64,000 bases of DNA from the NCBI RefSeq assembly GCF_003018115.1, contig NZ_CP027457.1. One strand, written 5' to 3'. Position numbers: made by a program. Shown here one piece after another: positions 45,221 to 48,200 of the stretch (its first letter is position 1; every line of letters starts with the position of its first letter). Source of the DNA: Escherichia coli (GTDB lineage Bacteria > Pseudomonadota > Gammaproteobacteria > Enterobacterales > Enterobacteriaceae).

Positions 45221-48200
45221 TAATGATGTGCCACATCCGGCATGGTATGCCGGATGTGGCGTATGCTGATAAGACGCGCCAGCGTCGCATCAGGCAACCG
45301 GCTCGGGCGTTGGATGTCGGATGCGGCGTAACCGCCTTATCCGACCTACGGGGTGGAGCACTTCACAGCGGTGTAGGCCTGATAAGACGCGTCAGCGTCG
45401 CATCAGGCAACCGGCTCGGACGTTGGATGTCGGATGCGGCGTAACCGCCTTATCCGACCTACGGGGTGGAGCACTTCACAGCGGTGTAGGCCTGATAAGA
45501 CGCGCCAGCGTCGCATCAGGCAACCGGCTCGGGCGTTAGATGTTGGATGCGGCGTAACCGCCTTATCCAACCTATGGGGTGCCGCACTTCACGGCAGTTT
45601 AGCGAACTTCCGCGTTGTTAATTTTCTCTTCTGCCTTCCAGACGCGGTATTTCACATCTACATTGTCTGGCGTATACACCACGATCGGCAGCTTGCTGTT
45701 GTAACGCAGCATTCCAGCATCGCCCAGATACGCGGTGACAAATTTCTTCTCTTTCTTGCCATCCGGGCAGGCCATCATCGTGGAAACCGGCGAGCTAACT
45801 TTATCAAAGACATAATAATCATAGCCCCAGCCTTCCAGCGTTTTGCTTTCCAGCTTCCCGCCGAGACGATGCAAATTGCAATCGACTTCCAGCGTCTGAC
45901 CGATTAACAGTTCTACTTTCAGGGTAGATTCATCTTCTTGCGGGGTTAACTGAATCACCTGACGCTTCATGCCTTTTTCAGCTTGTGGATAAGGCGCGAT
46001 TTTTTCCAGTGGCTGGACGCTCTCTGCCGCCCAGGCGGAAGTGGTGGCAAAAGCGGCAAACAATACTGCAGGTAGAATGGTCTTCATTTTTTGCTTTCCT
46101 TCTTCATTTATAGGTTTGCACCGATGATGTCGCTGAAGGTTAACATATTCATCAGATTTATTAATTTGCTTTATGAATAACTTAAAGAATATTCAGACAA
46201 TTTTACCTTCTCTTTTAGTGTTAAATTCTGATGAGAGAGCAAACCAGCAGAAATATCTCTGGTGAATTAATCGCTATATAAATATATTTATAACCATTTG
46301 AAATGTGAGCAAAAGCCCGTTTTTGCCACGCTTCCCGCCACTCTTTTGATCCTGCTACAGGTTTTACCTCGATCGGGGTATGCATCTTTGACACATCCTT
46401 TAATATCTTAGCGGCTATAAAAATGGCTTATTAATTATGCGGTTTATTTGGTCGCTCTCAATTTTCAGAGCGCGTTAATGATGGAAGGTCAATGTGAAGA
46501 TTGATGCATCCCGTCGGGGCATACTCACTGGTCGCTGGCGCAAAGCCAGTAACGGTATCCGTCCGCCCTGGTCCGGTGATGAATCTCATTTTCTGACCCA
46601 TTGCACCCGCTGCGACGCCTGTATTAATGCTTGTGAAAACAACATTCTGCAACGCGGCGCGGGCGGCTATCCGAGCGTTAATTTCAAAAATAACGAGTGC
46701 AGCTTCTGTTACGCCTGCGCGCAGGCTTGCCCCGAATCGCTATTTTCTCCGCGCCACACCAGGGCCTGGGATTTGCAGTTCACCATTGGGGACGCGTGCC
46801 TGGCGTATCAGTCAGTTGAATGCCGCCGCTGTCAGGATAGCTGTGAGCCAATGGCAATTATCTTTCGCCCGACGCTCTCCGGGATCTACCAGCCGCAACT
46901 TAATAGCCAACTTTGCAACGGATGTGGAGCATGTGCAGCCAGCTGTCCGGTATCAGCCATAACTGCGGAGTATCTCCATGCACACTAACTGGCAAGTTTG
47001 CAGCCTGGTCGTGCAGGCCAAAAGCGAACGAATTTCAGACATCAGCACCCAACTGAACGCCTTTCCCGGCTGTGAAGTTGCTGTCAGCGACGCGCCGAGC
47101 GGTCAGTTGATTGTGGTGGTGGAAGCAGAAGACAGCGAAACGCTGATCCAAACCATTGAGTCAGTACGCAACGTAGAGGGCGTGCTGGCGGTGTCGCTGG
47201 TTTATCACCAGCAGGAAGAGCAAGGTGAGGAAACACCATGAAACTCAGTCGTCGTAGCTTTATGAAAGCTAACGCCGTTGCGGCCGCTGCGGCGGCTGCC
47301 GGTCTCAGCGTGCCGGGCGTTGCCCGCGCCGTTGTTGGTCAGCAGGAAGCCATTAAATGGGACAAAGCGCCGTGCCGTTTCTGCGGTACTGGTTGCGGCG
47401 TTCTGGTCGGAACGCAGCAGGGGCGTGTGGTGGCCTGTCAGGGCGACCCGGACGCACCGGTTAACCGTGGCCTGAACTGCATTAAGGGCTATTTCCTGCC
47501 CAAGATCATGTACGGTAAAGACCGTTTGACGCAGCCGCTGCTGCGTATGAAAAACGGTAAATATGACAAAGAAGGCGAATTTACCCCAATCACCTGGGAT
47601 CAAGCCTTTGATGTGATGGAAGAGAAATTCAAAACCGCCCTGAAAGAAAAAGGGCCGGAATCGATCGGTATGTTCGGTTCTGGTCAGTGGACTATCTGGG
47701 AAGGTTATGCCGCGTCCAAGCTGTTTAAAGCGGGCTTCCGTTCGAACAACATCGACCCGAACGCGCGTCACTGTATGGCGTCGGCAGTAGTTGGCTTTAT
47801 GCGTACCTTTGGTATGGATGAGCCGATGGGCTGCTATGACGACATCGAGCAGGCTGACGCGTTTGTGCTGTGGGGCGCAAACATGGCGGAGATGCACCCG
47901 ATCCTCTGGTCACGCATCACTAACCGTCGTCTCTCTAACCAGGACGTCACCGTGGCGGTGCTTTCAACCTACCAGCATCGTAGCTTCGAGCTGGCGGATA
48001 ACGGCATCATCTTTACGCCGCAATCTGACCTGGTGATCCTGAACTACATCGCCAACTATATCATTCAAAACAATGCGATAAATCAGGACTTCTTTAGCAA
48101 ACACGTTAACCTGCGCAAAGGGGCGACGGACATCGGCTACGGTTTACGTCCGACCCATCCGCTGGAAAAAGCAGCGAAGAATCCGGGTTCTGACGCCTCC

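What the first reader, a model, noticed from the sequence alone, without database searches (positions are those of the whole stretch)
46271..46493. napF promoter: conserved ModE / FNR / NarP site arrangement
A ModE-like box (CGCTATATAAATATATTTATAACC), an FNR-like half-site (TTGATCCTGCTACA) and a 7-2-7 NarP/NarL site (TACCTCGATCGGGGTA) occur at the spacing expected for the known napF P1 promoter. The two heptamers of the 7-2-7 site are an imperfect inverted repeat.
Basis: partly seen in the sequence, partly recalled or inferred. Interest (0 to 1): 0.15.

Follow-up and report, generated by a model that had tools for sequence, protein, structure and literature searches.

The report
Known E. coli napF promoter region
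This is the well-studied switch region in front of the E. coli periplasmic nitrate reductase (nap) genes; it matches the laboratory strain K-12 at every base but one, so it is ordinary.

Summary
Window 46088-46493 is the eco/napF intergenic region of E. coli, and napF starts at GTG 46494.
- ModE: 46272-46295
- FNR: 46346-46359
- NarP/NarL 7-2-7: 46365-46380

Aligned with K-12 MG1655, the finding's 223 bases have no indel and one substitution. That is 46369 T (C in K-12), which turns K-12's perfect palindrome TACCCCGATCGGGGTA into TACCTCGATCGGGGTA. If +1 is placed at 46417, the box centres fall at -133.5, -64.5 and -44.5. Those are the published K-12 positions as I recall them; a held paper supports only the -44.5 one.

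The T allele occurs in 444 of 5,426 complete E. coli genomes (O157:H7, O145:H28 and others), and also in E. albertii and Leclercia. It still fits the heptamer consensus (Y at that position).

The annotated yojO ORF overlaps all the boxes but is broken by stop codons outside E. coli.

Taken alone, the FNR and 7-2-7 matches are no better than chance; the case rests on homology to the characterised K-12 region. Already known, low interest.

The parts
46272..46295 (+). ModE box CGCTATATA-N6-TTTATAACC, centre 46283.5 (-133.5 from the inferred P1 start)
   Evidence: The sequence is read and is identical to K-12. The half-sites are conserved in E. albertii and four Citrobacter species, and absent in Leclercia. 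Its role as the ModE site comes from McNicholas and Gunsalus 2002 (my memory); PMC8139620 states that ModE activates nap.
46301..46322 (+).
   Evidence: It has 3 mismatches to AAATGTGA-N6-TCACATTT, with 2 such hits in the window against 0.40 expected. The stretch AAATGTGAGCAAAA (46301-46314) is invariant in Escherichia and Citrobacter. Stewart et al. 2009 reported a Crp site upstream of the Fnr and NarP sites; that rests on my memory of the abstract, and I do not recall the position.
46346..46359 (+). FNR site TTGAT-CCTG-CTACA, centre 46352.5 (-64.5); good left half, poor right half
   Evidence: Read. It matches TTGAT-N4-ATCAA at 7 of 10 positions. TTGATC is invariant in all 8 aligned sequences. 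The K-12 FNR ChIP peak is assigned to napF/yojO with a weak PWM score, ln p -5.37.
46365..46380 (+). NarP/NarL 7-2-7 site TACCTCG-AT-CGGGGTA, centre 46372.5 (-44.5); 46369 is T here and C in K-12
   Evidence: TACC.C and GGGGTA are invariant across genera. Allele counts are T in 444 and C in 4,971 of 5,426 genomes. PMC4549865 places the napF 7-2-7 site at -40 to -49.
46391..46410 (+). Core promoter: invariant ACACATCCT (46391-46399) and AATATCTTA (46402-46410). Candidate -10 hexamers are TATCTT (46404-46409, P1) and TAATAT (46401-46406, P2).
   Evidence: Invariant columns in the 8-sequence alignment. The hexamer assignments are my inference from the spacing to the inferred starts. The generic sigma-70 scan finds no + strand promoter, as expected for an activator-dependent promoter.
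46414..46417 (+). Inferred transcription starts: P1 at 46417 (A) and P2 at 46414 (G)
   Evidence: Inferred, not measured. 46417 is the 7-2-7 centre plus 44.5. The same origin puts FNR at -64.5 and ModE at -133.5, matching the three recalled literature values at once. P2 three bases upstream of P1 is from my memory of Stewart et al. 2003.
46418..46493 (+). napF leader with Shine-Dalgarno GGAAGG at 46483-46488
   Evidence: ATGGAAGG is invariant across genera. The predicted fold is no better than shuffled sequence, z = -0.38.
46494..46988 (+). napF coding sequence (164 aa, GTG start), first gene of napFDAGHBC
   Evidence: ORF list. Annotation of the matching K-12 and O157:H7 regions.
46221..46385 (-). 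Annotated ORF yojO (54 aa), overlapping the ModE, Crp-like, FNR and NarP boxes
   Evidence: Annotated in K-12 and O157:H7. It is intact in the window but has in-frame stops in E. albertii and in all four Citrobacter sequences.

Best explanation
This is the napF operon control region of an E. coli strain close to the O157:H7 group. It should work as described for K-12.

**Mechanism (from the K-12 literature):**
- Under anaerobiosis, FNR binds the weak site centred at -64.5.
- With nitrate or nitrite, phospho-NarP binds the 7-2-7 site at -44.5. The two together activate promoter P1.
- Phospho-NarL competes for the same 7-2-7 site and damps activation at high nitrate.
- Molybdate-bound ModE at -133.5, and probably cAMP-Crp at about -105.5, raise expression further.
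- IscR represses in air.

**Shown here:**
- the location of the region;
- near-identity and identical spacing to K-12;
- block-wise conservation of each box across genera.

**Inferred from the K-12 literature:**
- that the proteins bind these boxes in this strain;
- the transcription start.

The single C-to-T change at 46369 stays within the heptamer consensus (Y at position 5), so I expect it to be neutral or nearly so.
For: - **Synteny.** The region lies between eco (45599-46087, minus strand) and napF-napD-napA-napG.
- **Distribution.** The 406-bp intergenic region is found in 5,421 of 5,426 complete E. coli genomes; the best matches are 99.8% identical and include O157:H7 strains.
- **Alignment with MG1655.** There is no indel from 46089 to 46520 and one substitution inside the finding's range.
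- **One origin fits all three boxes.** Placing +1 at 46417 gives -44.5, -64.5 and -133.5 together.
- **Cross-genus alignment** (E. albertii, four Citrobacter, Leclercia).
  - Invariant: TTGATC, TACC.C..AT.GGGGTA, ACACATCCT, AATATCTTA and the Shine-Dalgarno sequence.
  - The FNR-to-start spacing has no indel, while the spacers between boxes diverge to 52-61% identity.
- **The central bases of the 7-2-7 site vary while its arms do not.** TACCCCAATTGGGGTA in two of the four Citrobacter sequences keeps a perfect palindrome.
- **Literature held.**
  - PMC4549865 places the 7-2-7 site at -40 to -49.
  - PMC9262595 reports that a -85 to +19 fusion depends on NarP.
  - PMC3688515 reports an FNR ChIP peak at napF/yojO and lists NarL, NarP, IscR, ModE and BasR as co-regulators.
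  - PMC8139620 states that ModE activates and IscR represses nap.
Against: - No binding or transcription data exist for this strain.
- The primary K-12 mapping papers could not be read here, so the values -133.5, -64.5 and -44.5, and the P1/P2 starts, rest on my memory. A held paper partly supports only the -44.5 value.
- The FNR box matches its consensus at only 7 of 10 positions. The 7-2-7 box is not above chance as a bare motif.
- The 7-2-7 site differs from the mapped K-12 site by one base, and the effect of that change has not been measured.
Confidence: 0.94

Rival explanations
1. The region is conserved because it encodes the small protein YojO on the minus strand (46221-46385), and the 'boxes' are incidental to that coding sequence.
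For: yojO is annotated as a CDS across this stretch in K-12 and O157:H7, and most hits carry the same annotation. The ORF is intact in the window.
Against: The ORF has an in-frame stop in E. albertii and several in each Citrobacter sequence. The ATG is replaced in Citrobacter and Leclercia. The boxes nevertheless stay conserved. Conservation is block-wise at the boxes, not spread along the frame. No minus-strand ORF of 50 aa or more exists at that place in C. youngae.
Confidence: 0.03
2. The C-to-T change at 46369 weakens or re-balances NarP and NarL binding. Strains with this allele (O157:H7, O145:H28 and others) would then regulate nap differently from K-12.
For: The change breaks K-12's perfect 16-bp palindrome. 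NarP is reported to bind only 7-2-7 arrangements, whereas NarL is more flexible (PMC2718512). The allele is a minority one, in 444 of 5,426 genomes.
Against: T is allowed at position 5 of the heptamer consensus TACYYMT (consensus from memory). The same T occurs in E. albertii and Leclercia, where all other site positions are kept. That points to tolerated variation. The other 15 positions of the site are identical to K-12.
Confidence: 0.1
3. The motif matches are chance resemblances with no function.
For: Taken alone, the FNR and 7-2-7 matches are at or below the chance expectation in the window.
Against: The region is base-for-base the characterised K-12 control region. The boxes are the conserved islands in a cross-genus alignment. 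The composite arrangement is unique in the window. An FNR ChIP peak has been reported at this spot in K-12.
Confidence: 0.01

Closest known systems
E. coli K-12 napF (aeg-46.5) operon control region, promoters P1/P2 (Darwin and Stewart 1995; Darwin et al. 1998; McNicholas and Gunsalus 2002; Stewart et al. 2003, 2009)
   Same: Same locus, same flanking genes and same spacing. 222 of the 223 bases in the finding's range are identical. The ModE, Crp-like and FNR boxes and the -10 region are identical.
   Different: One base differs in the upstream heptamer of the 7-2-7 site (46369 T, C in K-12), so the palindrome is 14 of 16 self-complementary rather than perfect. Five further substitutions and one single-base indel lie upstream, outside the finding's range: substitutions at 46118, 46190, 46209, 46230 and 46268, and K-12 has one extra T in the T run next to eco.
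napF upstream regions of E. albertii, Citrobacter spp. and Leclercia adecarboxylata
   Same: The FNR half-site, the 7-2-7 arms, the -10 block and their spacing are all kept. E. albertii and Leclercia carry the same T as the window.
   Different: In Citrobacter the ModE half-sites form a better palindrome, and the central bases of the 7-2-7 site differ. Leclercia lacks the ModE and Crp-like boxes and has a tRNA-Arg gene upstream instead.
E. coli nirB and nrfA promoters (FNR plus NarL/NarP 7-2-7 sites)
   Same: The same pair of regulators is involved, with a 7-2-7 heptamer pair bound by both NarP and NarL (PMC2718512).
   Different: From my own knowledge, in those promoters FNR sits at -41.5 and the 7-2-7 site lies upstream of it (about -69.5 and -74.5). 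In napF the order is reversed: the 7-2-7 site at -44.5 is next to the polymerase and FNR at -64.5 is behind it.

Membership tests
E. coli napF operon control region | Lies immediately upstream of napFDAGHBC and divergent from eco | tested here: met
   ORFs of 164, 87, 828 and 231 aa follow 46494, and eco lies at 45599-46087 on the minus strand. The order is the same in K-12 and O157:H7.
E. coli napF operon control region | Collinear with the K-12 sequence, so that the mapped sites are not displaced | tested here: met
   No indel from 46089 to 46520, and one substitution within 46271-46493.
E. coli napF operon control region | 7-2-7 NarP/NarL heptamer pair centred at -44.5 | tested here: met
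   TACCTCG-AT-CGGGGTA at 46365-46380, with one base different from K-12. PMC4549865 gives -40 to -49 for the K-12 site. The start site itself is inferred.
E. coli napF operon control region | FNR site centred 20 bp upstream of the 7-2-7 centre (-64.5) | tested here: met
   TTGATCCTGCTACA at 46346-46359, centre 46352.5, against the 7-2-7 centre at 46372.5. It is identical to K-12.
E. coli napF operon control region | ModE box centred at -133.5 | tested here: met
   46272-46295, centre 46283.5, which is 133.5 bp from 46417. It is identical to K-12. The figure -133.5 is from my memory of McNicholas and Gunsalus 2002.
E. coli napF operon control region | Transcription start(s) P1/P2 at the mapped positions | not testable with these tools
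   No transcript data are available. 46417 and 46414 are inferred from the site spacing and the conserved -10 block.
E. coli napF operon control region | Binding of FNR, NarP, NarL and ModE, and a response to oxygen, nitrate and molybdate, in this strain | not testable with these tools
   This needs footprints and reporter assays. Only K-12 data exist.
FNR consensus site (TTGAT-N4-ATCAA) | Close match to both half-sites | tested here: inconclusive
   The left half matches 5 of 5 and the right half 2 of 5. There are 346 comparable matches in the window. The K-12 ChIP peak carries a weak PWM score. The right half is conserved as C.AC across genera.
YojO protein-coding gene | Open reading frame kept in related species | tested here: not met
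   In-frame stops in E. albertii and in all four Citrobacter sequences, and the start codon is lost outside Escherichia.

The most novel reading that the evidence does not exclude
The 46369 T allele occurs in O157:H7, O145:H28 and some other lineages and breaks K-12's perfect 7-2-7 palindrome. It might shift the competition between NarP and NarL at the napF promoter. Periplasmic nitrate reductase would then be tuned differently to nitrate levels in these gut pathogens.
Probability: 0.08. Interest if true: 0.25.

Novelty: already known. Interest (0 to 1): 0.05.

Why it matters
It matters little. The napF control region has been studied in detail for some thirty years as an unusual promoter layout, with FNR at -64.5 behind a response regulator at -44.5. 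This window adds a natural one-base variant of the NarP/NarL site, which is shared with E. albertii and Leclercia and fits the consensus.

Two useful by-products:
- A clean cross-genus footprint of the control region.
- Evidence that the overlapping yojO annotation is probably not a conserved gene.

Tried and rejected
- **Primary K-12 papers.** I tried the DOIs and PMC ids (PMC135098, PMC193976, PMC107417, PMC2632075); none is held.
- **Full-text searches.**
  - Searches for the site positions and for the box sequences returned nothing useful.
  - A search for a ModE DNA-element paper found nothing relevant.
  - No supplement is held for PMC9262595 that would fix -85 and +19 in sequence.
- **Motif-only statistics.** These do not support the FNR or 7-2-7 boxes on their own. 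My first ModE pattern was derived from the site itself, so it is circular. The independent short consensus is only marginal.
- **Generic sigma-70 scan.** It finds no + strand promoter in the region. That is expected for an activator-dependent promoter, so it is not evidence against one.
- **Structured leader or attenuator.** The fold is no better than shuffles, z = -0.38, and the one terminator-like hit is weak.
- **Chance pattern hits.** The second composite-pattern hit, at 33955-33989 on the minus strand, lies in what I read as rcsB coding sequence. I treat the second 7-2-7 hit, at 37294-37309, as chance too.
- **Not tested.** IscR and NsrR sites. I compared the -25 to -1 stretch by eye with the IscR type-2 motif as I remember it; it matches 6 of 9 positions in E. 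coli and 8 of 9 in Citrobacter. That is a lead only.

Full report
**What is in the sequence**

- CGCTATATAAATATATTTATAACC at 46272-46295
- TTGATCCTGCTACA at 46346-46359
- TACCTCGATCGGGGTA at 46365-46380

A GTG-initiated ORF of 164 aa starts at 46494. It is followed by ORFs of 87, 828 and 231 aa, and a 162-aa ORF lies on the other strand at 45599-46087. The two heptamers of the 7-2-7 box are TACCTCG and, read on the other strand, TACCCCG.

**Where it comes from**

The 406-bp intergenic stretch 46088-46493 is present in 5,421 of 5,426 complete E. coli genomes, always on the chromosome. The best matches are 99.8% identical and include O157:H7 strains. The annotated K-12 and O157:H7 regions give the gene order yojI, mqo, eco, yojO, napF, napD, napA. 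So this is the eco/napF intergenic region, with the window in reverse orientation relative to K-12. The K-12 coordinate equals 2349991 minus the window position.

Alignment with MG1655 shows no indel anywhere from 46089 to 46520. Within the finding's range of 46271-46493 there is one substitution, 46369 T against C in K-12. The motifs are therefore not displaced.

The substitution lies in the upstream heptamer. K-12 has the perfect 16-bp palindrome TACCCCGATCGGGGTA, and the window and O157:H7 have TACCTCGATCGGGGTA.

**Positions**

The box centres are 46283.5 (ModE), 46352.5 (FNR) and 46372.5 (7-2-7). If the 7-2-7 centre is -44.5, then +1 is 46417 (an A). The same origin puts FNR at -64.5 and ModE at -133.5.

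These three values are what I recall from the abstracts of Stewart et al. 2003 and McNicholas and Gunsalus 2002. I could not open those papers, so they are marked as memory.

Held papers give partial support:
- PMC4549865 states that the napF 7-2-7 site is at -40 to -49.
- PMC9262595 used a -85 to +19 fusion that depends on NarP.
- PMC3688515 reports an FNR ChIP peak at about 2301669 (older K-12 coordinates), assigned to napF/yojO, with a weak motif score of ln p -5.37. It lists NarL, NarP, IscR, ModE and BasR as the other regulators.
- With the coordinate offset between genome versions taken from memory as about 1,978, that peak falls about 9 bp from the FNR box.
- PMC8139620 summarises that ModE activates and IscR represses nap.

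**Chance**

As bare motifs the boxes are weak:
- The 7-2-7 consensus with up to two mismatches gives 2 hits in 64 kb against 2.58 expected.
- The FNR consensus with up to three mismatches gives 346 hits.
- A short ModE consensus gives 9 hits against 3.9 expected.
- The composite of an FNR left half 14 nt upstream of a 7-2-7 frame has its only exact hit here, against 0.06 expected.

The evidence that these are real sites is homology to the characterised region plus conservation, not motif score.

**Conservation across genera**

A scan of species-representative genomes with NapF returned E. albertii, four Citrobacter and Leclercia adecarboxylata. Aligning their upstream regions gives a clear footprint.

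- *Spacing:* there is no indel from the FNR box to the start codon region.
- *Invariant in all eight sequences:* TTGATC, TTTACC.C.AT.GGGGTATGC, ACACATCCT (46391-46399), AATATCTTA (46402-46410) and ATGGAAGG.
- *Between the boxes:* identity falls to 52-61%.
- *7-2-7 site:* only the central bases vary. Two of the four Citrobacter sequences have TACCCCAATTGGGGTA, which keeps a perfect palindrome.
- *Position 46369:* it is T in the window, E. albertii and Leclercia, and C in K-12 and Citrobacter.
- *ModE half-sites:* they are kept in Escherichia and Citrobacter.
- *Leclercia:* it lacks the ModE box and has a tRNA-Arg(TCT) gene upstream instead.

AAATGTGAGCAAAAGCCCGTTT at 46301-46322 has a perfect Crp left half and three mismatches overall; there are 2 such hits in the window against 0.40 expected. 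Its first 14 bases are invariant in Escherichia and Citrobacter. Stewart et al. 2009 reported a Crp site upstream of the Fnr and NarP sites that mediates catabolite control of napF. That is from my memory of the abstract, and the paper is not held. I take this box to be that site, centred at about -105.5.

**The variant**

Thirty-one-base probes centred on 46369 can seed a megablast match only if the allele matches. They count T in 444 genomes and C in 4,971 of 5,426. Carriers of T include O157:H7, O145:H28 and several unrelated-looking pig and human isolates.

T is allowed at position 5 of the heptamer consensus TACYYMT (from memory) and occurs in two other genera. I therefore expect it to be neutral or nearly so. 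An effect on the NarP/NarL balance is not excluded, and I give it about 0.1.

**yojO**

The annotated 54-aa ORF yojO (46221-46385, minus strand) covers the ModE, Crp-like, FNR and NarP boxes. It is open in the window; the T allele changes its residue 6 from Gly to Glu. It has in-frame stops in E. albertii and in every Citrobacter sequence, and no ORF of 50 aa or more lies there in C. youngae. Conservation of this stretch is therefore explained by the regulatory boxes, not by coding.

**Mechanism**

The following is the K-12 model; only the sequence features are shown here.
- FNR bound at -64.5 and phospho-NarP bound at -44.5 together activate P1.
- Phospho-NarL competes for the same site and limits expression at high nitrate.
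- ModE-molybdate at -133.5 and Crp at about -105.5 add further activation.
- IscR represses in air.
- Two candidate -10 hexamers three bases apart, TAATAT (46401-46406) and TATCTT (46404-46409), fit the two overlapping promoters reported for K-12 (my inference).
- The generic promoter scan finds none on the + strand, as expected for an activator-dependent promoter.
- The leader shows no special structure.

**Verdict**

This is an already known, textbook control region carrying one natural, probably neutral, base change. Interest is low.

Noticed in passing
window 46221-46385 (minus strand): The annotated small ORF yojO lies entirely inside the napF control region. It is interrupted by stop codons in E. 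albertii and Citrobacter while the regulator boxes stay conserved, so it is probably not a conserved gene. The 46369 T allele changes YojO residue 6 from Gly to Glu.
   Followed up: partly
window 46301-46322: A conserved Crp-like box (AAATGTGA-N6-GCCCGTTT) lies between the ModE and FNR boxes. It is likely the Crp site reported for K-12 napF in 2009.
   Followed up: partly
window 46209: This position is T in the window but G in both K-12 and O157:H7. No genome among the 5,421 with a match is 100% identical over 46088-46493, so this base appears private to the source strain. It lies between eco and yojO, about 208 bp upstream of the inferred start, in no known site.
   Followed up: no
window 46391-46399 and 46402-46410: The promoter spacer block ACACATCCT is invariant across four genera, which is unusual for a spacer. 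By eye, 46392-46416 resembles the IscR type-2 motif as I remember it (6 of 9 positions in E. coli, 8 of 9 in Citrobacter). It could be the IscR operator.
   Followed up: no
L009:1167-1243: In Leclercia adecarboxylata a tRNA-Arg(TCT) gene sits about 260 bp upstream of napF. The ModE and Crp-like boxes are missing, while the FNR box, the 7-2-7 box and the -10 block are kept.
   Followed up: partly
L005-L008, columns matching window 46365-46380: Two of the four Citrobacter 7-2-7 sites (L005, L006) read TACCCCAATTGGGGTA. Both central arm bases have changed together relative to E. coli, so the perfect palindrome is kept. C. werkmanii (L007) is identical to K-12, and C. youngae ATCC 29220 (L008) has only one of the two changes.
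   Followed up: partly
window 33955-33989 (minus strand): A one-mismatch hit to the composite FNR plus 7-2-7 pattern lies here. By my reading it falls in the receiver-domain coding sequence of rcsB, so I take it as chance.
   Followed up: no
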